Shown: piece by piece, positions 48,388 to 64,000 of the stretch | Numbering within the stretch: the first letter of the stretch is position 1 | Layout: each line of letters starts with the position of its first letter | Source of the DNA: an uncultured Clostridia bacterium | Lineage (GTDB): Bacteria > Bacillota > Clostridia > TANB77 > CAG-508 | DNA: 64,000 nucleotides | Direction: 5' to 3' | NCBI GenBank assembly: GCA_947630065.1 | Contig: CANRGE010000001.1 | Location: 88,281-152,280 of the forward strand | Notes under the pieces: model-generated | What the model was told of the DNA's origin: nothing | Database searches by the model: none | The model's input: the letters and a program-made list of their open reading frames with translations, nothing else | Made by a program: the position numbers and the translations under genes

Positions 48388-48585
48388 TTAACCTACGACT
48401 TGTTTTGCCAATTTTAAAATTTTTCTTCTTCTTTTTCTTGGTAACTAACTAAAAGCATACAAAATATTAGTAACATAATCATCAAATTCTTCTTCTTCCT
48501 AAACTCCCATCAAATTTCCAAAGCCCATAATTTCAACAAAATTCATTTTCTTAAAACATTCTAAAAGCTTTTCTAATTCTTTCAC
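48388..48585 (-). CDS. Small hypothetical protein (65 aa)
   Basis: GTG overlaps the upstream TGA; open only with two TAG=Q. Confidence 0.55.
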
Positions 48586-49808
48586 AACATTTTCACCCCT
48601 TGCGGCGCAACATCATCATAAACAATAATTGGAAGTTTTAATCTTTTTCTTCTATCACATTCTTTACATCTATTGGTTAGTCCATCAACTGATTTATTCT
48701 TTTTAATAAAATTTCTGGAATCACGCAACTTTATGCTTTTACAACAAACACATTGTTTCCAAGCCTTTTCATAATCTTTTGCCAACCATTCATCATAATT
48801 AAGTTCTACAGCCTAAATTATTTTGTCCAAGGTCTTAACATAAATAGTGCTAATATAATTAGTCTGATGAAAAATTCCCAATTGTTTTACTAACTAATCC
48901 TAAATGTCTTTATTGCATTTTTGCTGTTTTTTTAGTTCTAAAATAAATTCTTGTTGAGGAGAAAGATTCGCCATTTTTTGATAAATTTCAAAAGTCCAGA
49001 TTAACTCCCACAACGGTGCAGCTTTTTCATCTTCTACAAAAGAAACTATATTAGCCCAGTTATTTATTAAGTAATATAAATGGGTTCTGTTTCTAAAATT
49101 AAAATAAATTTTGCCCTTACTATTCCATTCTTCTATTTCTTCATCAGTTACTGCAATAGCAGGTTCAGACTTATCATAAAAAGGTTTAATAAAATTGATG
49201 TCATTAGAACTTTTTGCTGTGCCGCGGGGCAAAACTGGATAAGTTAATTGAGAATTTAATGGGTCGCCATAGTACTTTAAGTAATTTTTTTCAGTACCTA
49301 TGACTGGATAAAACGAGTCCATTAAATAGTACTACTAAGTTCTAAGCTAAATAAGAAAATGTTTTAACAAATAAGCTTTTTTCTAATCAGTAAATTGTTT
49401 ATTTTTTTTCCTATTATTGCTGTTTAAAGCTGCTTGCCATTTATCAATTTCTTCCCAAAGCTCTTCCATTCCTGGAATTTGTTTAGCTTTTTCTTTATCA
49501 ATAGTTGGCTTAACTCTTTTATAGACAACATCATCATTCTAAAGCTAACATTCATCAAAACTTGGTGATTCCATTAGTTCATCTAAAGAAAGAAATTTTT
49601 GTTTTTGATAGGAATTAAATTTAGTTTTAATTTGAATTTCTTTGCGGTCTACTGATGATGTGCCATTATTATCTTTTCCATAAAGAATGTAATTGCTAAG
49701 AGTTTCAATTTCAAGAGGTGTTAAATTTGAATTACAATCTATAATATTTTTGACTTCTTTTAATCTATCTTTTGCAGAATAGATATTGAAGTCTAAATTA
49801 AATTTCAT
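48582..49808 (-). CDS. Putative DNA-binding regulator: sigma region-4-like HTH plus C-terminal Zn ribbon (408 aa)
   Basis: Three fragments in one frame; LSPQQEFILELK...NKDIQ...NYISTI, then KQCVCC...NRCKEC; first gene of the late block. Confidence 0.65.
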
Positions 49809-50264: not shown

Positions 50265-50293
50265 ATTATAACATGAAAAAGGTAATATGTCAA
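50265..50293 (-). promoter_or_regulatory. Consensus sigmaA promoter facing the late block
   Basis: TTGACA-17 nt-TATAAT with TG extension. Confidence 0.8.
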
Positions 50294-50346: not shown

Positions 50347-50599
50347 ATTAAGAGAGAGAGAGAAAAAGAAGAAAAAGAGAGAAAAATAGAACTAAAATTT
50401 GAAAAAAAGGTTCAAGAATTTTTTGCCAGGATAACACGTGTTATATAACGAAAATTATTTGTTAAAAATTTTAACCCCCCGTAACATTTTGTTAATAAGC
50501 TGGAAATAGCCTGTTAATAAGCTGTTCATATCCCATTCATATTTTGTTTATAAGCTATATACAACCTGTTAATAGATTATTCATAAATCTTATAGTTAA

Positions 50600-51050
50600 A
50601 AAATTTTACTAATTAACAATTTGTTTACTTTTCATTCATTTTAACTTAATAATTAAAATATTTTATTAATTAACAGTTCAGTTACTTGTTGTTCATTTTA
50701 ATTTAATAATTAAAAGATTTTACTAATTAACAATTTGTTTACTTTTCATTCATTTTAACTTAATAATTAAAATATTTTACCAATCAATGATTTGTTAATA
50801 ATTAAAATATTTGACTAATTAATGGCTTATTATTTATTTGTTAATAATTAAAAGATTGTACTAATTAAAGATTTTATGCTTGTTTGTTAATGTTTATTTC
50901 ATATTTTACGTTTAGAAAAAAATTACTAATTGTTAATATTTATTTCATATTTCACATTCACAAAAAATTACTGATTGTTAATACTTACTTAATATTTTCT
51001 GTTCAGATAAAAGTTACTAATTGTTAATACTTATTTAATATTTCACACAA
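50600..51050. repeat. AT-rich direct repeats (possible origin/iteron region)
   Basis: ~60-bp unit ttttactaattaacaatttgtttacttttcattcattttaacttaataattaaaatatttta at ~50605 and ~50718; ~45-bp-period ttgttaata(t/c)ttat units at ~50885-51045. Confidence 0.7.
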
Positions 51051-51271
51051 ATGCTTTATAGTATATATTATTTATGTAATAAAACATTTTAAGTATGATT
51101 AGATTTTTAGTGTATATTCTTTAATAATAAATATTGATAAATACTTAAACACTAAAAATATATTTTTATTAGCAATGATATTTATAAATATACTGTTAGT
51201 CTTTGTGCAATATCACCAAAAAACACTTTGAAAATAAATGATTTTTCGTCACATTTTTTTTTCAAAAACTA

Positions 51272-51300
51272 TTGACATAAAGACGCTTTTGTGGTATAAT
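51272..51300 (+). promoter_or_regulatory. sigmaA promoter
   Basis: TTGACA-17-TATAAT with TG extension. Confidence 0.85.
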
Positions 51301-51355
51301 ATATATAGTGAAAAGAACAATCACTATAAAATCGATTAGAGAGGATTTGAACGGT

Positions 51356-51862
51356 ATGCGACAAATTAAACCACCAACACAAGAGGAAACGGCAGCTTTT
51401 AACAAGTATCACCACTACTCAAAGGCTCACACTTATTGCATCGGTTATGTAATGGACGGTTACGTTCGTTATATAATGGCGAAGAAAGAGGATTTGGCTT
51501 TGTGCATAGGCTTTGACACGCAAAGTCAGACCAATAAGACATTGCGTTTTCAACCTGCAAAACAGACTTTGCAGGAGCTGGAAAAGAAAAAAGGCTTTGA
51601 AAATTTGTGCACAACAGACGAATTCAGAGTAGCTTTGGATAAGCTGAGAGAAAGCACAGGAAAAAGCTACAATAGAGGACAATTATTTGAAAAGCTGATA
51701 TATAACAGATATAATCAGCTTTGGCAGCATAATTCAACACCATTCTTTGAAAAAGGTGACATCACAATAAATGGTGTAGAAATACAGATTAAGTACAACA
51801 AAGCCACGTTTTGCAGCTTGAAAACGCTTGAAGAGCTTGAAAAGCTTGAAAAAGCTGAATAA
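51356..51862 (+). CDS. Hypothetical protein, possible restriction-endonuclease-like fold
   Basis: ATG at 51356 after GAGGA; YNRGQLFEK...KGDITINGVEIQIK; no in-frame TAG. Confidence 0.7.
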   Translation: MRQIKPPTQEETAAFNKYHHYSKAHTYCIGYVMDGYVRYIMAKKEDLALCIGFDTQSQTNKTLRFQPAKQTLQELEKKKGFENLCTTDEFRVALDKLRESTGKSYNRGQLFEKLIYNRYNQLWQHNSTPFFEKGDITINGVEIQIKYNKATFCSLKTLEELEKLEKAE

Positions 51863-51941
51863 AAAACGGACAAAAAATCGGTATAGGTCGCCTGCGGTAT
51901 GGGCGGGCTGACCCCGATATAATAAGAAAGGTTGATAAAAT

Positions 51942-52190
51942 ATGGAATACGTTGAGAAAATCAATAGCCTGCTGGATAGCCTGTACAATGAGGTTTCAAC
52001 CCAAGAGGACATAAGAGAATCGGAAATTAAGTGTCTTGAATGGGAGCTGGACAATGTTAAAAAGCAGAAAGTACGTGCAGTTGACCGATTGACCCAAACA
52101 ATCTGGGAACTTGATGATAAGAATGACCTCTTAGAAAAAAGAGTACAAGAGCTGAAAAAAGAAAACGAGGAACTGAAAACGTGGATTTAA
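51942..52190 (+). CDS. Small coiled-coil protein
   Basis: AAAGG RBS; heptad-rich sequence. Confidence 0.75.
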   Translation: MEYVEKINSLLDSLYNEVSTQEDIRESEIKCLEWELDNVKKQKVRAVDRLTQTIWELDDKNDLLEKRVQELKKENEELKTWI

Positions 52191-52376
52191 ACCCTGCGTG
52201 AAGTGGTTTACAAGCTGACCCAAATCTAACCCCTGTTAAACGTCAGCTAACAAAAGTTCATTAACCGCCGCCGCAAGGCGGACGGGGAAAATGAACAAAG
52301 ACATTTTTTGTAAAAAGTGGTATAATATTATTAGTGAGGGGGAAAAGAACCCCGAAAATAGAAAGAGGTTGATGTC

Positions 52377-52877
52377 ATGAGAGTTTCAGAGATTGAGGAA
52401 AGAATCCGCAACGCGGAAGAATTATTAACCAGCTTACGCAATGAATTGCAGCAGGCAAAAGCAGCGGAAATTTTCAACCGCGTTCCTGAGGGGGAATCTT
52501 ACTACACCGTTTTTCTTAATATCTATGGTGCAGTAACAGAAAATAACATAGACGATTACGACCCATGGGACGATACTGCTGTTGAAAACAACAATTATTT
52601 CCGTTCAGAGGAGAGAGCGTGTCAAGTAGCGGACAAAATCAGTTATTTGCTTTTAATAGAGAGGGTGCATGATATTTTTTGTCCCGATTATACCCCAAAT
52701 TGGGATACTAACGAAAATAAATACTTCGTTATGTATAACCATACGGATAGGAAATATACAGAAACAATGACAAGACAGAACCAGAATTTAACACAAACTT
52801 ATTTTCCAGATAGAGCGACCGCACAGAGGGCGTGTGACTATCTAAATACACACTATAATTTTTGGGAAGAGGAATAA
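52377..52877 (+). CDS. Hypothetical phage protein
   Basis: GAGG RBS; extended -10 TGGTATAAT at 52318; terminator hairpin at 52894-52916. Confidence 0.8.
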   Translation: MRVSEIEERIRNAEELLTSLRNELQQAKAAEIFNRVPEGESYYTVFLNIYGAVTENNIDDYDPWDDTAVENNNYFRSEERACQVADKISYLLLIERVHDIFCPDYTPNWDTNENKYFVMYNHTDRKYTETMTRQNQNLTQTYFPDRATAQRACDYLNTHYNFWEEE

Positions 52878-53908
52878 GACTGTAATATAACAAAGGTGAG
52901 GAGTAAAATCCTCACCGAATTATTATATAAATATAACATACTATAAGATAACGACAGGTTATAACAGTTATTATATAACTATTGTAACTCCCTGTGTGAT
53001 GTTATAACATAAGGTGTTATAAAAAAAATATGCCGTTTGCCACTTTGTTAATTCTTTATTTATGCTTGTATGGAACGTTAATTGTGCTAATACATTATTA
53101 TATTTAAAATTGATTTTATTTTTCTTATAAATTCTTAATAAAAATTTTATAATTTTCAAAAGTTTGATACCCCTTTTGAAAAATTTACCATCTTTTATTT
53201 ATCCCGATTAAAAAATTACTGCCCCTATTATATAATATAAATTTTTCTATTTGTTATAACATTTATTATTATATAACCCCTCTTATATAAACATAAATGA
53301 CTTACTGTTAATATAACAGTTGGTATTACATTGCCAGTTATATAATATAAGTTACTCCCTACAATATATAACATAGTAAAATATATAAAACCTCTTATAT
53401 AACATTTGTTTCTTTATTTAATTATAATACTTACTGTTATACTACCCCGTTATATAACATAAATTATTTTTATAAAATATAACATTTATTATTATATCAC
53501 TGTTATATAACAATTTTTATATTTTATATTATAACATAATAAAATATATGACCCGTTATATAACATAAGTAATTACCTGTTTGTTATAACAGTTGTTGTT
53601 ACATTATTGTTATTATATAATGTTAGTTACATTTTTCTTGTTATATAACACCCTTGTTATATAACCTCTGTTATATAATGAGCTATAAATAATATATATT
53701 ATATAATTCTTGTTATATTATTTATGTTGTATACCACTGATATAATTATTATATTATATAACTACTAATATATTTTCCTTGTTATATAACATAGTACCGC
53801 CGCACTTTAGCAATTTAGTATATTAAAATGTATTACAATATATTATACTTCAAGCCTGCTTACCGATATTTTAATAAAAAAGTTCATAAACCTTTTAAGA
53901 AATTTTCA

Positions 53909-53937
53909 TTGACATTTACCGTAAAAAATGATATAAT
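53909..53937 (+). promoter_or_regulatory. sigmaA promoter
   Basis: TTGACA-17-TATAAT with TG extension. Confidence 0.85.
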
Positions 53938-53984
53938 ATTATTAGTAAAGGGGAAGAACCCCGAAATAGAAAGGATTTGGTGTT

Positions 53985-54164
53985 ATGAGAAAGAATTTCA
54001 CAAATGAAATAATGGGTGAAGCAATAAAAATTTTAAAGGCTAATCCCGATGCATGGGATAATCCCAGCTTTGTACGCCTTGTGAGGAAAATTCAAGAGGT
54101 GTTTGATGAAGAAACTGATTATATTTTACAACAAATGTCACAAGAATGTGATGATAATTTTTAA
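53985..54164 (+). CDS. Small hypothetical protein (59 aa; below ORF-track cutoff)
   Basis: Own promoter, AAAGGA RBS, MRKNFTNEIMGEAIKIL..., terminator agataagga-ttcg-tccttatct-tttt at 54173. Confidence 0.75.
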   Translation: MRKNFTNEIMGEAIKILKANPDAWDNPSFVRLVRKIQEVFDEETDYILQQMSQECDDNF

Positions 54165-54530
54165 TTGATGAAAGATAAGGATTCGTCCTTATCTTTTTTG
54201 TTATATAAATATATTATTCCCTATATGAAAAATAACACGTGTTATTTATTCTCCGTATTCTTAACAAAAAGTTCATAAACCTTTTAAGAAATTTTCATTG
54301 ACATTTACCGTAAAAATGATATTATAACATAGTAAATTATATAACCCCTATTATATAATATAAGTAATTACCTACTTGTTATAACAGTTGGTATTATATA
54401 AAATCTATTATATAATAGTCGTTACATTTCCTTTGTTATAATATTTATTGTTATATTACTTCATTATATAATAAATAATATGTAATGTATTTTATATAAC
54501 GGGTGATATATAAATTATATTATATAACTA

Positions 54531-54645
54531 CTGATATAATTTTTTATGTTATATATCTTCTGATATAATTTTTTATGTTATATATCTTCTGATATAATTT
54601 TTTATGTTATATATCTTCTGATATAATTTTTTATGTTATATAACT
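54531..54645. repeat. 29-bp tandem repeat x4
   Basis: ctgatataattttttatgttatatatctt repeated. Confidence 0.85.
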
Positions 54646-54789
54646 ACTAAAATATTTCTTCTATTATATAATTTATGTTTCGCTCACTTTAACATATTAA
54701 ATTATTAAAATATGACGACATATGTTATACTTAAAATTTGCTCACCGATATTTTAATAAAAAATTCATAAACCTTTTAAGAAAATTTCA

Positions 54790-54818
54790 TTGACTTTGGC
54801 GGCGAAAAGTAGTATAAT
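54790..54818 (+). promoter_or_regulatory. sigmaA promoter
   Basis: TTGACT-17-TATAAT. Confidence 0.8.
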
Positions 54819-54847
54819 ATATAATGTAAGGAGGAGAGGTGATAAAA

Positions 54848-54961
54848 ATGAGATATTGGTATCATCTGGATAGCGGACTTGTCCGCGAAACAGAGGTGAA
54901 CGTGATGCCCCTCGCGTGGATTGAAATAACACGTGAGATGTACGAAGATTTGATAAAATAG
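54848..54961 (+). CDS. 37-aa hypothetical protein apparently ending in TAG
   Basis: GAGGTGAT RBS; MRYWYHLDSGLVRETEVNVMPLAWIEITREMYEDLIK; the TAG is followed directly by the GGAGGT RBS of the next gene. Confidence 0.65.
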   Translation: MRYWYHLDSGLVRETEVNVMPLAWIEITREMYEDLIK

Positions 54962-54974
54962 GGAGGTATTATTT

Positions 54975-55172
54975 ATGTACGGGGTTTTTTATAGGACGGG
55001 CTACTTTTCTGCTGATTTAGAGGAGATTTATTCCACTAAAGAAGAGGCAGAAAAAGCCATCAAAAACATCAATTATTTGCTGGAAGAGTTTTGTGGCTAT
55101 TACATTATGAGATATTTTGTTGAAAAGTTGAGTGACAAAATCACAACAACAATAATAGATTGGGAGGAGTGA
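54975..55172 (+). CDS. Small hypothetical protein (YSTKEEAEKA motif)
   Basis: GGAGGT RBS; terminator aaagtggaat-tta-attccacttt-tttt at 55179. Confidence 0.75.
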   Translation: MYGVFYRTGYFSADLEEIYSTKEEAEKAIKNINYLLEEFCGYYIMRYFVEKLSDKITTTIIDWEE

Positions 55173-55207
55173 TAGCATAAAGTGGAATTTAATTCCACTT
55201 TTTTTAA

Positions 55208-55339
55208 TGTGTTATATAACAGTTGTTATTCAAAATAATAATACGTGTTATATAACAGTTGTTATCCAAAATAATAATACGTGTTATATAACAGTTGTTA
55301 TCCAAAATAATAATACGTGTTATATAACAGTTGTTATCC
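55208..55339. repeat. 36-bp tandem repeat x3.5 containing GTTATATAAC
   Basis: gtgttatataacagttgttatccaaaataataatac repeated. Confidence 0.88.
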
Positions 55340-55510
55340 CACACAGGTTATAACATCTGTTATGTAACATAAGTATCTCCCTGTGTGATTTTATAACAGA
55401 TGTTATATAACATCAGTATTTTACAATGATATAATATAACATAGTGTATAATATTATACTGTAAAAAAATAGTATGTAAGTTATATATCAACCTACATAC
55501 TATAATTATG

Positions 55511-55630
55511 TTATATAACTAACAATAATACAATAAACCAAAATACCAAAATTATTGTTATATCAACCCAGAAATAAAAGTCCTCTAATTTTCCCCTTTT
55601 TTGAAAATATCTTTTTATTTTATAATACAT
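55511..55630 (-). CDS. 39-aa single-pass membrane peptide
   Basis: GGAGAGGT RBS; MYYKIKRYFQKRGKLEDFYFWVDITIILVFWFIVLLLVI; the TAA lies within a GTTATATAAC copy. Confidence 0.6.
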   Translation of the reverse strand: MYYKIKRYFQKRGKLEDFYFWVDITIILVFWFIVLLLVI

Positions 55631-55645
55631 GATATATACCTCTCC

Positions 55646-56122
55646 TTATAAATCTTTGCTTTCTGTTACGAAATATTTAACATCATATTTCTTTATAATC
55701 TCTCGAATTGCGGAACTTTCTTTCTGATTTTTAGTGTAAATATTAAACAAGCAGATATTTGTAGTACAATTGATTTTTGTGAAAGGTATACTAACGTTAG
55801 TTAGAACATTTGACAATTGTTCAGCAAATTCATTTTTCACTGTACATTCAATTTTCCATAACTTTTCTTTTTTCAATCTTTCCTCAATAGACTTTACAAT
55901 GTAAACGCCTATCAAATTACAGCCGCCGACTATCACAGCTTTTAATATTAGAGATAATTCACACGTCATATAAACCAATACCACCGTATAAAGTCCATAT
56001 GCTATGGCATTACTCCATGCCGCCACCCATTTGTTACCCTTAATTGTCAAAAGGGACTTAATTGTCTGAATGATAACATTCAAGACATTTAGTATTACGA
56101 ATGTGATAAATAATTTACTCAT
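55646..56122 (-). CDS. Membrane protein, DUF5698/UPF0316-like
   Basis: Hydrophobic N-terminus LNVLNVIIQTIKSLLTIKGNKWVAA...AYGLYTVVL...NLIGVY plus a small soluble domain; own promoter TTGACT-17-TATAAT at 56162-56190. Confidence 0.75.
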   Translation of the reverse strand: MSKLFITFVILNVLNVIIQTIKSLLTIKGNKWVAAWSNAIAYGLYTVVLVYMTCELSLILKAVIVGGCNLIGVYIVKSIEERLKKEKLWKIECTVKNEFAEQLSNVLTNVSIPFTKINCTTNICLFNIYTKNQKESSAIREIIKKYDVKYFVTESKDL

Positions 56123-56666
56123 TCTATCAATCCTTTCTTTTATTTTCCCTCTCTATTATATATTATATCATAAATTCACGGATAAGTCAATAGTTTTGAG
56201 TGTAAAATTTTTAGAAAAATAACACATATTTTTTGTGCAATATTACAATTGACTTTCATGAAATATAATAGATGTTATTCTTACATAAATCTTATTTAAT
56301 ATAAATATAACATACTATAAGATAACGGTAGGTTATAACAGTTATTATATAACTCTTATAATTCCCTGTGTGATGTTATAACATAAGGTGTTATAATATT
56401 ATTCCCTAAAAATTTTAAGAATAATGAATAATGTAATAATAAAGCAAGGACTAAAATCCTTGCTGAATTACTATAATAATATAACATACTATAAGATATA
56501 ATTATATTGCTTATTATAATTTTATATGTTGTATAATATTTGTTACTTCTAAAGTTATAATATATGTTTTATAACATTTGTTTCTCTCTGCTATATATAA
56601 CATAAATTGTTCTATAACAATTGTTATATAACAAAAGAAAAGAAAAGGGCTTTACAGCCCTTTATA

Positions 56667-56819
56667 TTATGGTAACATCTCATACACCTCCAAATCACAT
56701 TTTCCAGAACAATTACGTACGTAATCAATTATGATTGTTATTGCTTCATCTTTTGTGACGTTTTTTGCCACCGTAACAACATTGCTTCCGTACAAGTCAA
56801 TAATAAAATATTGTTTCAT
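56667..56819 (-). CDS. 50-aa hypothetical protein
   Basis: AAGGTGGT RBS; own promoter TTGACA-17-TATAAT at 56869-56897 (the ORF-track start overlaps the -35); terminator at 56644-56663. Confidence 0.7.
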   Translation of the reverse strand: MKQYFIIDLYGSNVVTVAKNVTKDEAITIIIDYVRNCSGKCDLEVYEMLP

Positions 56820-57223
56820 ATTAGTAACCACCTTTTTATTTTTTAGAGATTCCCTCTCTCTATTATATATTATATCACTTTTAATCGTGTTTGTCAATAG
56901 TTTTGAATGTAAAAATTTTAGAAAAATAACATATGTTTTTTATGCAATATTACTAATTGATTTTTATAAAGTATAATAAAGATTATTTTATACAAAATTT
57001 TGAGTATAATATAACATACTATAAGATAACGACAGGTTATAACAGTTATTATATAACTATTGTAACTCCCTGTGTGATGTTATAACATATTATGTTATAT
57101 AACATTAGTTTCTCTCTATGATTATAACATAATATGTTATATAACATTAGTAATAACCTACGTTATAACACATTGTGTTATATAATGTTTATTATATAAC
57201 ATAGACTAATATATTAAGTAGAT

Positions 57224-57486
57224 AACGCTTGTTATATAACAACGTGAGCTGCAATACATTTGTTATATAACTAAAATTATGTGAGCTGCAACACGCTTGT
57301 TATATAACAACGTGAGCTGCAATACATTTGTTATATAACTAAAATTATGTGAGCTGCAACACGCTTGTTATATAACAACGTGAGCTGCGAGCTGTTATAT
57401 AACAAATAGAATAATATGAGCTGTTATATAACAATAAATATGATGTGAGCTGTTATATAACAAATAGAATAATATGAGCTGTTATT
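57224..57486. repeat. Tandem array alternating GTTATATAAC and GTGAGCTG(CA)
   Basis: 67-bp unit present about 2.5 times, followed by ~29-bp gagctgttatataacaa units. Confidence 0.9.
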
Positions 57487-58014
57487 TATCATAAACATTA
57501 TATAACAATAATAATATATAAAAAGTTATACAACTACAAACATATAATCAATATTATATTATAACAGTAATATTAAAAATGTTATGTAACAAAAATAATA
57601 TTAAAGACATTATATAACGGCAATAATAGATTAAAAGAATTAACTAATTAAAAAATATTTTGCAAAAAATTAAGAAAATATCTATTGACTACTTATTGAC
57701 ATAATAACAAGAAAAAATTATACTTTTTAATTTAATTTTTTAATAACACCAATAATCATTAACAATAGTCAAAAAACAAACAAAAACAAATATTATACAT
57801 AATTTTTTTTATTTAGAAAAATTAACTAATTTAAAAAACTTTATAAAAAACTTAACAGAAATTCCATTGCTTTTATTTTCTGAATGTGGTATAATAATAA
57901 TGTAAGGAGGGAACAGTACAAAAGAATAAAGAGCGTGAGTGCTAAAAACAGTGTACTATGGGCTTCTTTACAAAACATTCACATTTCTTTAACATTAAGG
58001 AAAGAGGTATTTCT

Positions 58015-58365
58015 ATGACAAAGGTTGAATTTTTTGAAATGGTAATAAACGGCGACGAAATCACCGAGGTTATGAAACAGTACGCCCAATCGGAACTTGA
58101 AAAAATTGAAATAGGCAAACAGAAACGCCGCGAACGTACGACCGAAAAACAAAAAACAAACACTGTTATAAAAGAACGTATACTGAAACTGCTGAAAGAG
58201 GACGGCAAACAGTCTGTAAGAACTATAGCAGATGTTATGGAACTTTCGACCCAAAAAATTTCTGCCCTTATGGGTCAGTTGGTAAAAGACGGTTATGTAA
58301 CAACGCAAAAAGAAAAATTTAAGGAATCGTCAACAAAAGTTTACACTTACGAAATAAAGCAGTAA
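58015..58365 (+). CDS. Winged-HTH DNA-binding protein, paralog A
   Basis: RILKLLKEDGKQSVRTIADVMELSTQKISALMGQLVKDGYV; ATG at 58015 after GAGGT; promoter TTGCTT-17-TATAAT at 57867-57895. Confidence 0.82.
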   Translation: MTKVEFFEMVINGDEITEVMKQYAQSELEKIEIGKQKRRERTTEKQKTNTVIKERILKLLKEDGKQSVRTIADVMELSTQKISALMGQLVKDGYVTTQKEKFKESSTKVYTYEIKQ

Positions 58366-59053
58366 CAAAAATGATATATAAAGGTGGTGATACATTATGA
58401 TTGTAATATAATTAGGAAATGATATAACAAAAATAATAAGAAAGGGGTTGATACCCTTTTCTTATTATTGTTATATAACATAATGTGTTACATCGTAGAT
58501 AATAATATATATTATATAACATAGTGTATTATAATATAAATAGCAAATGTTATATAACATACTGTGTTACATTCATAGGGAGATACAAAAGTTATATAAC
58601 ATTCATATCATAAAATAAAAAATAACAATTATTATATAACATAATATATTATAAAATGCACTGCCACTCATTATATAACAAAAATTTGATACCCCTATTA
58701 TATAATAAAATTATAGAAACCCTATTATGTAACAGAAATTTTAATACCCCATTATATAATAAAAATTATAGAACCCCTATTATGTAATAGAAAATTTTAA
58801 TACCCCGTTATATAATAAATATTATAAATTATTTTTGTTAAAAATTCTAATTTTATATTTACTCCCGCTAAAATTAGGCAGCCCCTTTATATAACAATAA
58901 TTTTCTATTGTTAATATAATAATTAAATCTTTTTATTTATTAGAAGAAAGTTATTAAAGAATTAAAAAATAATTCATTGACTTTGGCTCTAAAAAATGTT
59001 ATAATAATATTGTAAGCAAAGGACATAAACCAAAAGAAAGTGAGTGTTATATA

Positions 59054-59398
59054 ATGAGATATAATGACTTAATGATATGCGCCGACAGTGACAATAAACG
59101 GAAAGATATTATCCGACAAAGAATAATGAAAACTCTAATAAATTGCTTGAATCAGGAATTTAATGATGAATATGTCCGTTGTATAACAAAGGATATATAT
59201 TTAGGAGAAAGTGCCAGCAAGATTCCAAAGAATACAATTGTTATTGATGTCGGTGATGTTTTGGACAAAGATAAAATGACAATGGGCGCGTTGGTAGAAA
59301 TTAGCATAAAAGTCAAAAATTGGAATGGTACGAAAACGGCAAAGACAAATCGAGAAGCATTTAGTCTTATTGATATTGATGAAGCATTAAAAGAATAA
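59054..59398 (+). CDS. Hypothetical protein
   Basis: Own promoter TTGACT-17-TATAAT at 58977-59005; terminator aagagga-gcaa-tcctctt-ttt at 59397. Confidence 0.75.
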   Translation: MRYNDLMICADSDNKRKDIIRQRIMKTLINCLNQEFNDEYVRCITKDIYLGESASKIPKNTIVIDVGDVLDKDKMTMGALVEISIKVKNWNGTKTAKTNREAFSLIDIDEALKE

Positions 59399-59671
59399 GA
59401 GGAGCAATCCTCTTTTTTTTCTCTGTTATATAACAAGTGTTATACCACTACACAGATAATAATATAAGTTATATAACATCTGTTATATAATTTATGTTAC
59501 TCCCTGTGTAATGTTATAACATAATATATTATAATAAAATTAAAGTTAAATCTTTTTACTATTTAATAAAAGATTATTTTAAGTTTAATAAATAATTCAT
59601 TGACTTTTTCTTTGGAAAATGTTATAATATTATTGTAAGAAAAACGTATAGCTTAAAATTGAAAGGAACAG

Positions 59672-60316
59672 ATGTTATTTATGGAGATTGTAAATACAAT
59701 AGTATTAGAAAACGGTGGTTATTATGATACGGACGTTGAAATTGAAGATATAACAATTGACAAACTTCCCGATAACATGAGTTTTTGTAGAAACTTGACA
59801 ATTTCTAACGTAATTATAACAAATGGTATGCTACCTAAAGAGTTACGTGTTGCTGGAGATTTACGGTTAATAGGTCTAAATTTAGAAGCACTCCCCACTG
59901 ATTTACAAGTTTATGGTAATATTTACATTACTAATTGTAATATAAAATATTTGCCCGACCCATTTTTAGTAAATAAGAGTTTAGAAATAGAAAATTCAAA
60001 GATAAATAAAATAAATAACATTGTAGTAGGTGGGAATTTAACTTTAGATAGTTTACAAAATATTATAAAAAATGATTTTAATATCAATCTAACTATATTA
60101 GGAGATTGTAACCTTTATTATTATGGAGATTCATGGAACAAAATAACGGGCAATATAATAGTAAAAGGGTTTTTATATATTAGAGGTTGTAATATAATTG
60201 GAGATAATATATATCACCTTAGTAATATAACAGCATTTCAAGGTTTTTTAAATGATATTACTGATTATGATTATGATGATTATGATGTTTTTTATGATGA
60301 TTCTTATGATGATTAA
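59672..60316 (+). CDS. Leucine-rich-repeat / beta-solenoid-like protein
   Basis: Repeating LP..L.V.G.L.I units; promoter TTGACT-17-TATAAT at 59600-59628; terminator at 60333-60356. Confidence 0.72.
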   Translation: MLFMEIVNTIVLENGGYYDTDVEIEDITIDKLPDNMSFCRNLTISNVIITNGMLPKELRVAGDLRLIGLNLEALPTDLQVYGNIYITNCNIKYLPDPFLVNKSLEIENSKINKINNIVVGGNLTLDSLQNIIKNDFNINLTILGDCNLYYYGDSWNKITGNIIVKGFLYIRGCNIIGDNIYHLSNITAFQGFLNDITDYDYDDYDVFYDDSYDD

Positions 60317-61147
60317 CATTATATAACATTATGAGGACTTAATGTCCTCTTTTTTTATAGTATTATATAACATATATTGTTCTATTAAATAAATAATATT
60401 TATTATATAACACTTGTAATTCACTGTGTTATAACATATTATGTTCTATAAAGAATGTTATATAACTTATGTTTCTCCCTGCGTTATAACATATTGTGTT
60501 ATATAATAATAAGAATGTATAACAAATGTTATATTACGCCGCCCATTATATAATAAATATTATTGATAAGAAATGTTATATAACAATCATTATCAATAAC
60601 AGCGGCGGCATAACAAATATTATAATAAAAACTGTTGTATAACATATTTTATAGATAACAATTTTTATGCAACATTTATTATATAATAACTAATATATTA
60701 AATAAGTTATAGAACTCTTATTATAGAGCAATAGTTATAAAATTCTTATAATATAACATTGATAACATTGCGTCCGTTGTAATACATAGACTATATAACA
60801 TTGTTTATCAATTCACTGTTATATAACACTGTTTATCAATTCACTGTTATATAACATTTATTATAATTCTATCATTATATAACATTGATTATATTTTTAT
60901 TGTTGTATAATATTAGTTATAATTCTGTTGTTATATAGTATTAGTCACAATTCAGATGTCATACAACATTAGTTATCGATTCGTCATTACACAACAAGCA
61001 TTGTGTAACACGGGCGGCGGCAAACATAGCATCTATTATATTACATCTAAAATATTATTTCTATTATAAAATAAATGTTATATAACAAAGAACATAGGGA
61101 GCAACACTTGTTATATAACATCATTTACAATAATAAAAAGAGAGGTG

Positions 61148-61816
61148 TTATGTAACACCTCTTTCTGCTTTATATAACACCTTTTTCATTTTCATTTTTA
61201 AGTTGATACATTTAACAAAAATTTGATATTCTATTAGGCAATCTGATAACCCCATGTGTTCTTCTTTAAATTCTACGTCATTTGTTATATAACGGTAAAG
61301 AATTTCTGCTGTGAATCTTGGTGTTCCGCGACTTGTTATATAACCATTCTTTAAACAAAACTTGTAATACTTCTTTTGCTGTCCGATTGTATTTTTTGCC
61401 ATTAACAAAGTATCCCAAACCTCTACCTCATATGGCAGAAAATATCTAACTTTATCATTTGTTATATAACGCATTGTGTTATTCAATGCTTTGATGTCAA
61501 ATTTTGCATTGTGGGCGATAAAAGCACGTATGTTATATTTTTCTACTAACTGTTTTAATATTGTTTTTGCTTCAAACAGGTTTGTCACATGGCTTTTTTG
61601 CTCTGAAATATTTATTAAATATTTTGGAATTTTTTCTTTGTAGTAGGCGGTATTCATTAAATCAGGATTCCCGAAAATGTCTGTTATTATGAGTGATTGC
61701 CGCTCATAAATATTCCCCTTTCTATCTATGACTATAAATCCCAAATCATAGACTAACGGACTTTGTAAATTTCCCGCTGTTTCCGTGTCAAGTAAAATAT
61801 AATAGTGCTTATTCAT
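61148..61816 (-). CDS. DEDDh (DnaQ-like) 3'-5' exonuclease
   Basis: ExoI LDTET, ExoII AHNAKFD, ExoIII EHMGLSD; ATG at 61816 after AAAGGA; promoter TTGAAA-17-TATAAT at 61860-61888. Confidence 0.88.
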   Translation of the reverse strand: MNKHYYILLDTETAGNLQSPLVYDLGFIVIDRKGNIYERQSLIITDIFGNPDLMNTAYYKEKIPKYLINISEQKSHVTNLFEAKTILKQLVEKYNIRAFIAHNAKFDIKALNNTMRYITNDKVRYFLPYEVEVWDTLLMAKNTIGQQKKYYKFCLKNGYITSRGTPRFTAEILYRYITNDVEFKEEHMGLSDCLIEYQIFVKCINLKMKMKKVLYKAERGVT

Positions 61817-62158
61817 AACTATCGTTTCCTTTCTGTACCTCTTTTTTAAGTACAATATAATTATACCATAGAATTTAATGAATTTCAATAGGCAGATTCA
61901 CCAAACTTTTTTTATTTTTTTGTGTATTTTGTCTAAGAATTACAGTGTTTAGTTAATAATTCTAACTAATTAAAAAAACTTTATAGAAAACTTAATAGAA
62001 ATTCTATTGCACAAATCTCTTAAAAGTGGTATAATATATAATGTAAGGAGGACAGAGTAAAAAAAACAAAAGAACCGCAAAAGACGGTAAAAAATGGTAC
62101 TCAATGGAACTCTTTACAGTACGTATGTTATTTCAATTGAAAAGAAAAGGGGTATTTT

Positions 62159-62509
62159 ATGACAACGAGAGAATTTTTTGAAATGATAGTAACTGGTGAC
62201 GAAGTTACAGAAGTTATGAAACAGTACGCAACAAAGCAGATTCAGAAGATAGACAACCGAAACGAAAAGAAGAGAACCACATTGACCGAAAACCAGACCC
62301 AGAATAATAAAATCAGAGACGCCATTATTGAGGTACTGAAAACAGACGGCGAACAGTCAGCCAAAACACTGTCAGATAACTTAGGTTATTCAACACAGAA
62401 AATATCAGCACTTATTACACCACTGATAGATAACGGGCGTGTTAAAATAGAGCGCAAGAAATTTGCAGGCTCAACAACGAAAGTCAATGTTTACAGTATT
62501 GTTATATAA
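62159..62509 (+). CDS. Winged-HTH DNA-binding protein, paralog B
   Basis: Clear paralog of 58015-58365 (EFFEM...GDE.TEVMKQYA; STQKISAL); promoter TTGCAC-17-TATAAT at 62007-62035; terminator at 62517-62538. Confidence 0.82.
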   Translation: MTTREFFEMIVTGDEVTEVMKQYATKQIQKIDNRNEKKRTTLTENQTQNNKIRDAIIEVLKTDGEQSAKTLSDNLGYSTQKISALITPLIDNGRVKIERKKFAGSTTKVNVYSIVI

Positions 62510-63523
62510 CAGCATGAGGGGTTCGCCCCTCTTTTTTTATTTTGTTATATAACAGTGAGTGTTATTTTCACAGGGCATAACTTTTGTTATATAACACAAT
62601 TAACAAGATTTAGAACATTTGTTATATAACAGATATTTTATTAAGAATAGATAACAAATGTTATACAACAAGAGATAGAAATTAAAAGACAAATATTATA
62701 TAACTAATGTTACGCGGCTGCACGTAACAGACATTATATAACTAATGTTATGCCGCTAATCATAACTAATGTTATATAATAGGTGTGCCGAACATTTGTT
62801 TTGCGATGGAATAATATCTGTTATATAACACCCGTTGCTCCCTATATGTTATAACACATTGTGTTACATAACATCTATTATTATGATATAACACATTGTG
62901 TTATATAACACTTGTTGTTCTCTGTAGTGATATAACATACTATGTTATAAAGCTATGTTATAACACATTGTGTTACATAACATCTATTATTTTATGAGTT
63001 ATAACATATTATATTATATAACTAATGTAATTTCCTATGCGTTATAACATAAACTGTTCTAAAACAAAATAACAAATGTTATTTGTCTATTATGACGAAA
63101 ATCAATTCACAAAAATTTTACATTTTATTGATTAAATTTTCACTATTCTTAATAATTTTTACAAAAAATTCATTAAATTTTCACTGTTCTTAATAAAATT
63201 TTAACAATTTTTCATAGAAAATTTACAAAAGTTTATAAAAATTTTACATTTCTTAATAGAAAATTCATATTTAAAAATCAAATTTTTTAATGAAATGTTA
63301 AAATTCTATTCCTAAATTATGAAAAAATTATGAATTGCGCCGAAAAACATTCGTTATTCATAATACTTATAATATAATATATGTTATATAACATTTGTAA
63401 TATAATGCGCGTTATATAACATCTGAAATACAACGTCTGTTATATAACATAACTACCATAGTTGTGAGATGGGGTTAATTAAGTATTGGTAGGTATAGTG
63501 ACGTCTGTCATAGGTGTTTCTTG

Positions 63524-63845
63524 TGTGAGCTGCATCATGTGAGCTGCAACTTTGGTTGGTTAATGGGCTAACTTAGGCATAATGTGAGCTGCAACTTGCA
63601 AGTTCAAGGGCTAACTTATGTATCGTGTGAGCTGTAATTTGAAGATTACAGGGTTAGCTTAGTACTATGTGAGCTGCATTTAGTAAAATAGTAAGCTAAT
63701 TAGGTTTTGTGTGAGCTGCATTTAATGGAGTAGGGAATTAGTTAGGTTTATACGAGCTGGATTCCATGAATTAAATAACTAACTTAGGTGTTAATGTGAG
63801 CTACATTTTGTGGGGTAGCAAGTTAATTGAGTTTTTTGAGAGAGT
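63524..63845. repeat. Regularly spaced dual-motif array (TGTGAGCTGCA / GCTAACTTAG-like) with variable interspaces
   Basis: Motif starts at 63524, 63538, 63583, 63626, 63668, 63710, 63751 and 63795; period 41-45 bp. Confidence 0.85.
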
Positions 63846-64000
63846 TAGCTTCTATGAAGTAGTAAATTAGTTAAAAAGTCACATGAATTAACCACCATGA
63901 AACAATAAGCCAGTTAAGAACAGAACATATTGCGCCGTGGCTACTATGTGCTGTCATGAATTAGTTAGATGAATGTTCCAAGCTAATATTATAAGTTAAG

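What the first reader, a model, noticed from the sequence alone, without database searches (positions are those of the whole stretch)
50440..63450. A 13-kb domain saturated with the palindrome GTTATATAAC, next to two winged-HTH paralogs
Seen: roughly half of this region is non-coding, and nearly all spacer DNA is built from GTTATATAAC/GTTATAAC copies at ~20-40 bp intervals. The motif switches on sharply near 50.4-52.9 kb and was not noticed in the first 50 kb. Inference: a dedicated nucleoprotein domain. Options are a centromere/parS-like field, a coating or shielding platform for first-injected DNA, a sponge for a host regulator (GT..TA..AC palindromes resemble GntR/HutC-type operators), or recombination sites. 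The duplicated wHTH genes (58015, 62159) are the obvious cognate binders. This is the best candidate for an undescribed system in this window.
Basis: partly seen in the sequence, partly recalled or inferred. Interest (0 to 1): 0.85.

Follow-up and report, generated by a model that had tools for sequence, protein, structure and literature searches.

The report
Palindrome arrays between phage early genes
The early-gene block of a 153-kb gut phage that reads TAG as an amino acid has about 120 copies of one 12-base palindrome packed into the untranscribed gaps between its genes; related phages carry perfect binding sites for host master regulators at the same spots, so these are probably protein-docking sites, though the protein that reads them here is unknown.

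Summary
All 48 exact GTTATATAAC copies in the window lie at 50440-63448 (0.28 expected). With near-variants there are 123 sites in the block against 5 in the other 51 kb, and no exact copy elsewhere on the 153-kb contig.

The block is the standard-code early region of a TAG-recoded siphovirus-like phage. It holds 11 small units with near-consensus sigma-70 promoters; terminators were called for 9. The arrays start 2-12 bp after the terminator in 7 of 9 cases. They never overlap a promoter (0 of 123) and stop at least 79 bp before the next -35.

Relatives have the same block but other motifs at the same position. Several equal host operators: the SOS box, cre and a CodY-like box. No LexA or LacI gene above cut-off was found in the records searched.

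The wHTH recognition helix is nearly the same across at least 7 motif classes. The "obvious cognate binder" inference is therefore not supported.

Best reading (0.4): amplified docking sites for a dimeric regulator, probably host-encoded, acting as insulator or decoy.

The parts
50440..63450 (.). Standard-code early-gene block carrying all copies of the palindrome (C1 138720-151730)
   Evidence: for motif confinement. TAG recoding opens ORFs in window 1-50000 (coding density 0.23 to 0.93) but changes nothing at 50-64 kb.
48582..49808 (-). Sigma-factor-like gene (408 aa, 9 in-frame TAG), first gene of the leftward late/structural operon; marks the left edge of the block. A 12/12 sigma-70-like promoter lies at 50293-50265 (-).
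   Evidence: phrog_5767, 6e-13; promoter scan; 51%-identical homologs flank the equivalent blocks of relatives.
50592..51043 (.). Other tandem repeats (57-bp and 46-bp units) in the almost motif-free left spacer
   Evidence: TRF; 1 site in 50440-51271.
51272..52190 (+). Unit 1: 12/12 promoter at 51272-51300; ORF 51308-51862 (184 aa, or 168 aa from an inner ATG; conserved early-block family with no known fold); ORF 51942-52190 (82 aa, coiled-coil-like)
52298..52916 (+). Unit 2: promoter at 52298-52326, ORF 52377-52877 (166 aa, no family), terminator 52895-52916
52917..53908 (.). Palindrome array, 16 sites
53909..54197 (+). Unit 3: 12/12 promoter, ORF 53985-54164 (59 aa), terminator 54170-54197; first site 2 bp after the stem
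54198..54789 (.). Palindrome array, 10 sites (includes a 29-bp x 5.4 tandem array)
54790..55201 (+). Unit 4: 11/12 promoter, ORFs 54839-54961 (40 aa) and 54975-55172 (65 aa), terminator 55179-55201; first site 9 bp after the stem
55202..55645 (.). Palindrome array, 9 sites (36-bp x 3.6 tandem array at 98% match)
55646..56190 (-). Unit 5: 11/12 promoter at 56190-56162 (-), ORF 55646-56122 (158 aa, hydrophobic N-terminal half, no family)
56191..56643 (.). Palindrome array, 6 sites
56644..56897 (-). Unit 6: 12/12 promoter at 56897-56869 (-), small ORF 56667-56822, terminator 56663-56644; first site 11 bp after the stem
56898..57865 (.). Largest array, 20 sites. At 57225-57485 the palindrome alternates with the directional word GTGAGCTGCA (68-bp unit, 100% match).
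58015..58365 (+). wHTH paralog 1 (116 aa); terminator 58440-58460, first site 9 bp after the stem
   Evidence: HTH_24, 31.6 bits.
58461..58976 (.). Palindrome array, 8 sites
58977..59414 (+). Unit 8: 11/12 promoter, ORF 59054-59398 (114 aa; a homolog in relative L011 seen by eye), terminator 59397-59414; first site 10 bp after the stem
59415..59599 (.). Palindrome array, 4 sites
59600..60349 (+). Unit 9: 11/12 promoter, ORF 59672-60316 (214 aa, no family), terminator 60333-60349; first site 12 bp after the stem
60350..61140 (.). Palindrome array, 15 sites (28-bp units)
61148..61816 (-). DEDD-type exonuclease-like gene (222 aa) with promoter at 61888-61860 (-); three exact palindrome copies lie inside the ORF (61284, 61335, 61461)
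   Evidence: phrog_20187, 5e-37, and RNase_T, 1e-4; homolog in L092 at 43% identity.
62159..62509 (+). wHTH paralog 2 (116 aa). Its stop codon lies inside a palindrome copy (62501-62510). Terminator 62516-62531, first downstream site 12 bp after the stem.
62532..63450 (.). Right-hand array, 20 sites
63525..64000 (+). Different, directional repeat (TGTGAGCTGCA...GCTAACTTAGG, about 42-bp units). It continues past the window to C1 152300 and is followed by TTAGACG units near the contig end.

Best explanation
WHAT IT IS. The 13-kb region is the early, host-RNA-polymerase-transcribed block of a large phage that recodes TAG. It uses the standard code. It is cut into 11 small transcription units, each with a near-consensus sigma-70 promoter and ribosome-binding site; intrinsic terminators were called for 9 of them.

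THE ARRAYS. The DNA left untranscribed, from each terminator to about 80-250 bp before the next promoter, is filled with about 120 copies of the 12-bp palindrome TGTTATATAACA. I read these as high-affinity docking sites for a dimeric, sequence-specific DNA-binding protein.

RELATION TO RELATIVES. This is the lineage-specific and roughly ten-fold amplified form of an element that all examined relatives carry at the same place. Several relatives use the perfect consensus operator of a host global regulator there (LexA SOS box, CcpA cre, a CodY-like box). No LexA or LacI gene above cut-off was found in the relatives' records searched.

INFERRED READER AND FUNCTION. The bound arrays would sit behind every terminator as insulators or roadblocks. 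At 123 sites per genome they would also have the capacity to sequester the regulator as a decoy, or to couple the early block to the host's state.

SHOWN VERSUS INFERRED. Shown: motif confinement, geometry, conservation, the comparative pattern, and the lack of helix co-variation. Inferred: that a protein binds, which protein it is, and what binding does.
For: 1. CONFINEMENT AND EXCESS. 48 of 48 exact copies lie in the block against 0.28 expected. There are 123 sites in the block against 5 elsewhere in the window. The half-site TATAACA occurs 177 times against 6.5-8.5 expected. The spacing GTTA-N2-TAAC occurs 54 times and N0 18 times, while other spacings occur 0-3 times.

2. SELECTION ON THE CORE, NOT ON A REPEAT UNIT. 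More than 20 tandem arrays have different unit sequences and periods, while information content is limited to the 12-bp core. Sites are depleted in ORFs: 11 of 123 in 37% of the DNA.

3. GEOMETRY. The first site lies 2-12 bp after the terminator stem in 7 of 9 terminators. None of the 123 sites overlaps any of the 11 promoters, and the nearest site is at least 79 bp upstream of a -35. Terminator-like sites number 26 against 2.7 expected.

4. CONSERVATION OF THE SAME PALINDROME. L092 (GC 0.40) has five copies at a 33-bp period directly after a terminator.

5. CONSERVED ARCHITECTURE WITH LINEAGE-SPECIFIC MOTIFS. TGTAAWCGWTTACA occurs 11, 13 and 13 times, all inside the equivalent block of three 155-164 kb relatives, with a reversed control of 0. 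GAACATATGTTC occurs 6 and 5 times, all inside the blocks of two complete genomes. In all 4 relatives' loci inspected by eye (L011, L041, L008, L092) sites lie just after terminators; this holds for most, not all, sites in L011 and L041.

6. THESE MOTIFS EQUAL HOST OPERATORS. CGAACATATGTTCG is the B. subtilis SOS-box consensus (PMC8270828, passages and Table 1 read). The cre and CodY consensus strings were confirmed as used in print from search listings only.

7. NO PHAGE-ENCODED READER IN THOSE RELATIVES. No LacI-family hit is above cut-off in 3 of 3 cre-type phages. No LexA DNA-binding domain is above cut-off in 5 of 5 SOS-type records, 2 of which are complete.

8. THE wHTH HELIX DOES NOT CO-VARY. 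It is nearly the same across at least 7 motif classes.
Against: No protein binding was measured.

TGTTATATAACA matches no operator I could name. A full-text search for the 10-mer found 19 papers, and none of the 15 listed concerned a bacterial or phage operator.

No host regulon is detectable if the co-binned genome is the host. It has 5 copies of the 10-mer, which is chance level, and none of the 12-mer. Four of those 5 lie in ORFs. The upstream regions of its lexA and recA genes show no such box. In 40 related genomes I tallied 34 copies from the table against 39 for a reversed control. The host link itself is unproven.

The helix argument is weakened because the helix served as one of two search seeds. 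Both phages that carry this palindrome have I or L at helix position 5, where most others have A. That leaves room for the wHTH proteins as readers.

One or two sites per spacer suffice in relatives, so amplification alone does not prove a decoy role.
Confidence: 0.4

Rival explanations
1. The two wHTH paralogs encoded in the block (58015, 62159) are the readers. They coat the arrays and shut off, insulate or organise the early block.
For: Both proteins are confident winged-helix proteins (HTH_24, 31.6 bits; model pLDDT 90.1). They are encoded inside the block and conserved as a pair in relatives. The only other phage found with the same palindrome, L092, also encodes a family member. Both palindrome-bearing phages have I or L at helix position 5, where most others have A. 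A palindrome suits a dimer.
Against: The recognition helix STQK[A/I]SAL is nearly the same in loci whose local motifs are the SOS box, cre, TAAGTATACTTA, TTTAGACG, TACGTACGAAA, GCCCGGGC or GTTATATAAC. Helix position 5 is also I in L051 and L061, whose repeated word is TTTAGACG. A protein this conserved more likely reads something shared by all lineages. The fold is generic, with the best PDB match at E 2.5e-3.
Confidence: 0.2
2. Another lineage-specific, phage-encoded repressor reads the sites and switches off or gates the whole early block. This would resemble SPbeta's SPBRE-MrpR pair or the mycobacteriophage stoperators.
For: SPbeta-type phages have a 15-bp element in about 10 early promoter regions bound by MrpR (PMC10516654, passages read). 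Repressors that stop elongation at many sites are known (PMC9283540, abstract). Several block ORFs have no known family. In relatives L060 and L059 the lineage motif abuts or lies about 20 bp from the -35.
Against: None of the 123 sites overlaps a promoter. No tyrosine-recombinase-like or resolvase gene is on C1: 0 of 8 and 0 of 4 hits in the assembly. The largest orphan protein (51308-51862) occurs in relatives of several motif classes, so it is not lineage-specific. At E <= 1e-6 only the exonuclease is shared between C1 and L092, which carries the same palindrome.
Confidence: 0.2
3. The palindromes are DNA-level recombination or shuffling signals at the borders of gene cassettes. This would resemble integron attC sites or the promoter-stem-loop cassettes of T4-type phages (both recalled, not checked).
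For: The sites flank every small, self-contained promoter-ORF-terminator unit. Gene content of the block differs between relatives while the architecture is kept.
Against: No recombinase was found on C1. Relatives' motifs coincide exactly with host transcription-factor operators, which a recombination role does not predict. Arrays of 5-20 sites per border are not needed for exchange.
Confidence: 0.07
4. The block is a replication-origin, packaging or injection-control region, and the palindromes are iterons or pause sites.
For: The block ends about 1.6 kb from the contig end. Assemblies from four runs of the same sample stop at the same place. Other directional repeats lie at both edges of the block.
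Against: 123 sites spread over 13 kb and interleaved with 11 expressed units is unlike known origins. The physical ends are unknown. The 'terminal repeat' of relative G001 is only a 27-bp assembly overlap. The runs come from one sample and are not independent.
Confidence: 0.05
5. The arrays are a plasmid-type centromere for a phage that can persist as an episome.
For: Clustered repeats together with small winged-helix proteins recall TubR/tubC-type systems (recalled, not checked).
Against: None of the 5 ParA-type AAA_31 hits in the assembly is on C1. There is no integrase or other lysogeny marker. The sites are spread over the whole early block instead of lying next to a partition operon. TubZ and ParM were not searched.
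Confidence: 0.03
6. The arrays are functionless AT-rich tandem-repeat expansions.
For: Many arrays are simple tandem duplications. Tandem repeats that happen to contain this 10-mer occur in unrelated metagenome contigs.
Against: The same 12-bp core is kept in more than 20 arrays with different units. It is also kept in a GC 0.40 relative. It is strictly excluded from promoters and starts at a fixed distance from terminators.
Confidence: 0.03

Closest known systems
SPbeta repeated element (SPBRE) bound by the master repressor MrpR/YopR of Bacillus phage SPbeta
   Same: Both are large Firmicutes siphoviruses; the TerL search returned hits to Bacillus phages and one hit annotated YonF. In both, one short conserved element is repeated in the intergenic regions of the early genes and read by one protein (PMC10516654, passages read).
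   Different: SPBRE occurs at about 10 sites, in promoter regions, and maintains lysogeny. Here there are 123 palindromic sites in tandem arrays, none at a promoter, and no integrase or recombinase-fold gene was found on the contig.
SOS boxes (LexA sites) in the SPbeta genome
   Same: A phage of this broad group carries multiple host-regulator operators, and LexA binding was shown in vitro for some of them (PMC8270828, passages and Table 1 read). Relatives of this phage carry the perfect SOS-box consensus in their early blocks.
   Different: The SPbeta boxes are degenerate (3-5 mismatches) and lie near promoters. Relatives here have perfect or near-perfect boxes just after terminators. This window's motif is not an SOS box.
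Stoperators of cluster A mycobacteriophages (L5, Bxb1 and others)
   Same: They are many copies of one repressor site in short intergenic regions, where the bound protein stops transcription elongation (PMC9283540, abstract). That is functionally close to a roadblock sitting behind each terminator.
   Different: By recall, stoperators are asymmetric, orientation-dependent and spread over the whole genome of temperate phages at about 20-35 copies. Here the sites are palindromic, confined to one 13-kb block, and about four times more numerous.
Host-takeover or pre-early blocks of SPO1 (terminal redundancy) and T5 (first-step-transfer DNA); recalled, not checked here
   Same: A block of about 10-13 kb near a genome end holds many small genes, each driven by a strong host-type promoter, together with unusually repeat-rich non-coding DNA.
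   Different: I know of no single palindrome reported to saturate those blocks. The terminal position and first injection are unproven here.
Code-15 (TAG-recoded) gut phages such as Phass-1
   Same: TAG is read through in structural and late genes, and a suppressor tRNA is present (PMC10607447 abstract). TerL is 33% identical to that of Phass-1.
   Different: The first 25 kb of Phass-1 and the first 14 kb of Geobacillus virus E3 show no saturating motif.

Membership tests
Winged-helix DNA-binding proteins (Pfam HTH_24 / MarR-like clan), for the two paralogs | Sequence match above the curated cut-off and a three-helix plus beta-wing fold | tested here: met
   HTH_24 at 31.6 bits against a cut-off of 21.9 for the protein at 58015. 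The paralog is 48% identical. The model has pLDDT 90.1 with H-H-H-E-E in the C-terminal half. The best structural neighbours are winged-helix proteins at E 2.5e-3 or weaker, so no specific subfamily can be assigned.
SPBRE/MrpR-type master-repressor operator system | One conserved element repeated in intergenic regions of the early genes | tested here: met
   123 sites confined to the early block.
SPBRE/MrpR-type master-repressor operator system | The element lies in promoter regions and represses them | tested here: not met
   None of the 123 sites overlaps any of the 11 promoters; the nearest is at least 79 bp upstream of a -35.
SPBRE/MrpR-type master-repressor operator system | A tyrosine-recombinase-fold repressor is encoded by the phage | tested here: inconclusive
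   PF00589 gives 8 hits in the assembly, none on C1. However, MrpR is a divergent member, and this model was not shown to detect it.
Mycobacteriophage stoperators | Asymmetric, orientation-dependent sites spread across the genome (features recalled) | tested here: not met
   The sites are perfect palindromes and all lie in one 13-kb block of a 153-kb contig.
Plasmid or phage centromere (parS / tubC type) | A partition NTPase gene accompanies the site cluster | tested here: inconclusive
   AAA_31 (ParA type) gives 5 hits in the assembly, none on C1. TubZ and ParM were not searched, and the contig may be incomplete.
cre (CcpA operator) | Match to TGWAANCGNTNWCA with a central CG | tested here: not met
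   TGTTATATAACA has no central CG and is 12 bp long, by direct reading. The co-binned genome has no ccpA or LacI-family hit. By contrast, relatives G001-G003 match the consensus perfectly.
Firmicutes SOS box (LexA operator) | CGAAC-N4-GTTCG | tested here: not met
   The motif lacks GAAC/GTTC arms. The upstream regions of lexA and recA in the co-binned genome show no GTTATATAAC-like box.
   The 8-mer form GTTATAAC has AT where the consensus has TA. The 10-mer form has six bases between GT and AC. Both are direct readings.
Code-15-type recoded phage | TAG read through in most genes, with a suppressor tRNA | tested here: met
   Coding density in window 1-50000 rises from 0.23 to 0.93 when TAG is read through. 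The same holds along C1 1-138 kb. A tRNA with anticodon CTA lies at C1 43941-44015. The amino acid inserted was assumed to be Q and was not tested.

The most novel reading that the evidence does not exclude
A widespread clade of large Firmicutes siphophages decorates the untranscribed spacers of its first-expressed gene block with perfect-consensus operators of host master regulators: LexA in some lineages, CcpA or CodY in others, and an unidentified regulator here. In this phage the sites have been amplified to about 120 copies per genome, so that incoming and replicating phage DNA itself acts as a decoy. The decoy would strip the regulator from the host chromosome, or report the host's physiological state to the phage. 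That would be host takeover by DNA sequence instead of by a protein.
Probability: 0.25. Interest if true: 0.85.

Novelty: new variant of a known kind. Interest (0 to 1): 0.66.

Why it matters
Repeated operator elements in phage early regions are known, for example SPBRE and stoperators. I found no description of three features seen here:
- a block-confined palindrome amplified to about 120 copies and excluded from promoters;
- a fixed placement just behind intrinsic terminators;
- replacement of the motif, in sister lineages, by the exact consensus sites of LexA, CcpA and possibly CodY.

They did not cover subscription journals.

If host regulators do bind, this is a new and directly testable way for phages to sense or rewire host physiology. 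It would also make arrays of perfect host operators a usable host-prediction signal for uncultured phages. If the wHTH proteins bind instead, it defines a new phage chromatin-like system.

The finding also bears on how recoded phages organise the standard-code genes they must express before the code switch.

Tried and rejected
SEARCHES FOR CLOSE RELATIVES OR THE SAME ARRAY
- Megablast of the block against GenBank phages found nothing.
- The pattern of three palindromes gave 0 hits in IMG/VR.
These looked at first like a widespread system. Most are plain tandem repeats or a GC-rich, eukaryote-like transposon family with transposase-like ORFs. Only 2 of 124 loci share a protein with C1. I therefore dropped the idea of a universal reader.

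HOST-SIDE TESTS
- The motif in the co-binned genome is at chance level.
- There is no excess in 40 related genomes.
- No box was seen upstream of lexA or recA.
- The sigma-like protein was not found in the 40 related genomes.

LIFESTYLE MARKERS
- No integrase, resolvase or ParA hit lies on C1.

THE 184-aa FIRST-UNIT PROTEIN AS A CANDIDATE READER
- The Atlas search gave only weak restriction-endonuclease-like leads, with scores of 0.82 or less.
- The word-index search found only the protein itself, and there was no IMG/VR relative.
- The exhaustive search found 278 representatives. The family occurs in relatives of several motif classes, so I rejected it as a lineage-specific reader.
- Its confident model (pLDDT 96.5) matched no solved fold: Foldseek best E 0.046, VIA-align best Z 2.8, and no PDB sequence match.

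GENOME ENDS
- C1 has no terminal repeat.
- The 'DTR' of relative G001 is a 27-bp overlap.
- Contigs of four runs from one sample stop just before the poly-T at the C1 end. They come from the same sample, so they are not independent.

EXPRESSION
- No RNA holder was listed.

OTHER NEGATIVE OR LOST STEPS
- Phass-1 and Geobacillus E3 have no comparable motif field in the parts read.
- The paper search for 'SPBRE' with match=anywhere returned crispbread papers and was wasted.
I could therefore not inspect the contigs of the wHTH homologs P0002-P0017.
- Supplementary files of papers were not consulted. The SPBRE site lists in the supplements of PMC10516654 might refine that comparison.

Full report
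OBSERVATION. GTTATATAAC occurs 48 times in the window, and every copy lies between 50440 and 63448. Dinucleotide-preserving shuffles give 0.28 on average, and 0 of 100 reach 48. The shorter form GTTATAAC occurs 19 times, 18 of them in the block. The window is bases 88281-152280 of a 153,374-bp contig, C1, in a 92-contig assembly. On all of C1, 48 of 48 exact and 57 of 67 one-mismatch copies lie in the block. The other 2.0 Mb hold 5 exact copies, which matches Markov expectation of 3.8-6.9. Counting one-mismatch 10-mers and exact 8-mers gives 123 sites in the block and 5 in the other 51 kb. The conserved core is the 12-mer TGTTATATAACA, and flanks beyond it carry almost no information. The half-site TATAACA occurs 177 times against 6.5-8.5 expected. 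Only two half-site spacings are used: N2 (54 times) and N0 (18 times).

WHAT THE REGION IS. Under the standard code the first 50 kb of the window has almost no long ORFs. Reading TAG through raises coding density from 0.23 to 0.93, with ORFs up to 1,927 aa, while the 50-64 kb block is unchanged. The same holds along C1 1-138 kb. C1 carries 10 tRNAs, including one with anticodon CTA. The recoded genes include a tape measure, Dit, portal, large terminase and a sigma-like protein. The nearest cultured terminases, at 39% identity or less, come from large Firmicutes siphoviruses: Geobacillus E3, Enterococcus H1/EF1 and Phass-1.

The block is therefore the standard-code part of a TAG-recoded phage. 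It contains 11 small units with near-perfect sigma-70 promoters. In the scanned stretch, four promoters score 12 of 12 (three drive block units; the fourth, at 50293, faces the sigma-like gene) and eight score 11 of 12. Units also have Shine-Dalgarno sequences, and terminators were called for 9 of them. Terminator-like sites number 26 against 2.7 expected. Its products are:
- two winged-helix paralogs, 48% identical;
- a DEDD-type exonuclease-like protein;
- several small proteins without a family.
ORFs cover 37% of the block.

GEOMETRY OF THE ARRAYS. In 7 of 9 called terminators the first site begins 2-12 bp after the stem; in the other two it begins at 21 and 41 bp. None of the 123 sites overlaps any of the 11 promoters, and the nearest site is at least 79 bp upstream of a -35. 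Nine spacers carry 1.3-2.2 sites per 100 bp, while the left spacer 50440-51271 has one site. Only 11 of 123 sites lie in ORFs. Tandem Repeats Finder reports more than 20 arrays with different unit sequences and periods, mostly 27-29, 36-37, 42, 55 and 68 bp. What is kept is the core, not a repeat unit. The arrays thus fill exactly the DNA that is not transcribed. They are not classical promoter-overlapping operators.

RELATIVES. The sigma-like protein finds 154-170 kb IMG/VR contigs at 51% identity. These lack GTTATATAAC, but the equivalent region is enriched for TGTAAWCGWTTACA. In three near-complete records, all 11, 13 and 13 copies lie in the roughly 10-kb block next to the sigma-like gene, with a reversed-pattern control of 0. 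That block is syntenic with ours: two wHTH paralogs, the exonuclease, consensus promoters, and (by eye) the 114-aa protein. Its motif often sits right after terminators.

A profile of the wHTH family found 57 loci in large phage contigs. Most loci have their own high-copy word (counts of perfect palindromes there are doubled). The classes include:
- GAACATATGTTC and variants: 13 loci carry at least 5 copies of the exact word, and 4 more carry only the variant;
- the cre-like word, in 5 loci;
- AATTTTCWGAA, in 3 loci;
- TAAGTATACTTA, TACGTATACGTA, TACGTACGAAA, GCCCGGGC and TTTAGACG.
In L041, 7 of the 11 SOS-type sites lie about 10 nt behind a terminator T-tract. In two complete genomes all 6 and 5 exact copies are confined to the block. 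A third lineage, L008, has TGTCGCATTGTT after its terminators.

THE SAME PALINDROME IN ANOTHER PHAGE. Among 124 loci from metagenome and genome scans for three spaced copies, most are unrelated tandem repeats or a eukaryote-like transposon family. L092 is a true relative. It has GC 0.40, an exonuclease 43% identical to ours, and a wHTH-family protein with helix KTQKLSAII. It carries five copies at a 33-bp period, four exact TGTTATATAACA and one with a single change, directly after a terminator. The motif is therefore conserved across substantial divergence and a change in base composition.

WHO READS THE SITES.

(a) The wHTH proteins. Their predicted recognition helix is nearly the same in loci with at least 7 motif classes, so it does not track the motif. 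There are two caveats. The helix was one of the two search seeds. Both palindrome-bearing phages have I or L at helix position 5 where most others have A, although two TTTAGACG-class loci also have I. The model is a confident but generic winged helix.

(b) Host regulators. CGAACATATGTTCG is the B. subtilis SOS-box consensus, and SPbeta itself has about 10 degenerate SOS boxes, some shown to bind LexA (PMC8270828, passages and Table 1 read). The cre and CodY consensus strings I recalled are used in print (search listings only). The cre-type phages encode no LacI-family protein above cut-off (0 of 3), and the SOS-type records encode no LexA DNA-binding domain above cut-off (0 of 5, 2 of them complete). 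Two or three lineages matching the exact consensus of unrelated host regulators is hard to ascribe to chance. It also means one conserved phage protein cannot read them all.

- the motif matches no operator I could name;
- the 10-mer appears in 19 papers, and none of the 15 listed concerned a prokaryotic operator;
- the co-binned genome has no ccpA;
- that genome has a lexA, but neither lexA nor recA has a similar box upstream;
- the 12-mer is not enriched there or in 40 related genomes, at 34 copies against 39 for the control by my tally.
The host link of C1 is only co-binning.

(d) Another phage protein. The largest orphan protein (51308-51862) belongs to a family present in relatives of several motif classes, so it is not a lineage-specific reader.

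MECHANISM. The best-supported reading is that the palindromes are high-affinity sites for a dimeric regulator, placed where transcription will not sweep the protein off. One or two sites behind each terminator, as in relatives, would serve as an insulator or roadblock, or as a sensor of host state. Amplification to 5-20 sites per spacer here suggests selection for capacity, meaning a decoy or a coating. I put 0.4 on the host-regulator version, 0.2 on the wHTH pair and 0.2 on another phage repressor. The remainder goes to recombination, origin or packaging, centromere, or neutral repeats.

The centromere and lysogeny-repressor readings lack their expected partners: none of the 5 ParA-type, 8 integrase and 4 resolvase hits in the assembly falls on C1. 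A terminal, first-injected position cannot be judged. C1 has no terminal repeat. Contigs from four runs of the same sample stop at the same point before a poly-T. The 'DTR' of relative G001 is a 27-bp overlap.

COMPARISON WITH KNOWN SYSTEMS. The closest described cases are SPbeta's SPBRE-MrpR pair (PMC10516654, passages read), the SPbeta SOS boxes and mycobacteriophage stoperators (PMC9283540, abstract). This region shares with them a single repeated site in early intergenic DNA. It differs in five ways: it is palindromic, confined to one block, excluded from promoters, anchored behind terminators, and amplified roughly ten-fold. It fails tested defining features of each (see the membership table), so I file it as a new variant of a known kind.

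VERDICT. Interest 0.66.

Noticed in passing
window 1-50000 (C1 1-138000); tRNAs at C1 43580-52436, outside the window: Nearly all genes outside the block need TAG read-through: coding density rises from 0.23 to 0.93. C1 carries 10 tRNAs, including one with anticodon CTA. The sigma-like first gene of the late operon has 9 in-frame TAGs yet sits behind a perfect host-type promoter (50293-50265, minus strand).
   Followed up: partly
Relatives' loci L041, L046-L048, L050, L053, L054, L058, L065 (SOS-type); L011, L032, L040, L045, L067 (cre-type); L018, L059, L069 (CodY-like): The early blocks of related large phages carry block-confined, perfect or near-perfect consensus operators of host global regulators, and no LexA or LacI gene above cut-off was found in the records searched. 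This may be a finding in its own right and a possible host-prediction signal.
   Followed up: partly
window 57244-57445 and 63525-64000 (continuing to C1 152300): The directional word GTGAGCTG(CA) has 13 of its 14 C1 copies here, all on the + strand. In one array it alternates with the palindrome. Similar words recur in relatives: GTGAGCTGG in L019 (21 counts of the GTGAGCTG word) and GGAGCTGCA near the end of the block in G001. It is a candidate for a cross-lineage site, perhaps the real target of the conserved wHTH proteins or a packaging or origin signal.
   Followed up: partly
L001 700-1140 (C1 152701-153140) and L002 2-79: Units containing TTAGACG repeat five times near the contig's right end, and one inverted, 81%-identical copy lies at the left end. 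TTTAGACG is also the dominant repeated word in about 10 relatives' loci, with four half-sites per spacer in L022.
   Followed up: partly
window 51308-51862: The first early protein belongs to a family with 278 cluster representatives at E <= 1e-3. The alignment has invariant Y18, G108, E112, D135 and K146. The model is very confident (pLDDT 96.5) but matches no solved fold (best Foldseek E 0.046, best VIA-align Z 2.8). It is a conserved early-block protein of unknown function and possibly a new fold.
   Followed up: yes
window 61284, 61335, 61461 and 62501: Three exact palindrome copies lie inside the exonuclease ORF, in frames that encode Y-I-T. The stop codon of wHTH paralog 2 is part of a palindrome copy. 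Sites therefore intrude into coding DNA in a few places.
   Followed up: no
window 50592-51043: The almost palindrome-free left spacer has its own tandem repeats (57-bp x 3.6 and 46-bp x 3.5), lying between the divergent late-operon promoter and the first early unit.
   Followed up: no
L001 1290-1375 (C1 end): The contig ends in a poly-T run of about 70 bases. Independent per-run assemblies of the same sample stop just before it. This is either a real DNA end with a library artefact or an assembly break.
   Followed up: partly
Metagenome loci such as L078, L103, L108, L128, L133, L140, L141, L162: Lake-metagenome contigs with GC 0.34-0.48 in those listed carry up to 39 copies of the same 10-mer in 2 kb, next to transposase-like ORFs. 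This looks like subterminal binding-site arrays of a eukaryotic transposon and is unrelated to the phage.
   Followed up: partly
L195 (1,121-bp contig, GC 0.23, filed under an Actinomycetota MAG): This contig has 36 exact copies of the palindrome at a spacing of about 24 bp. Its composition does not fit the bin, so it may be a fragment of a phage block like this one.
   Followed up: no
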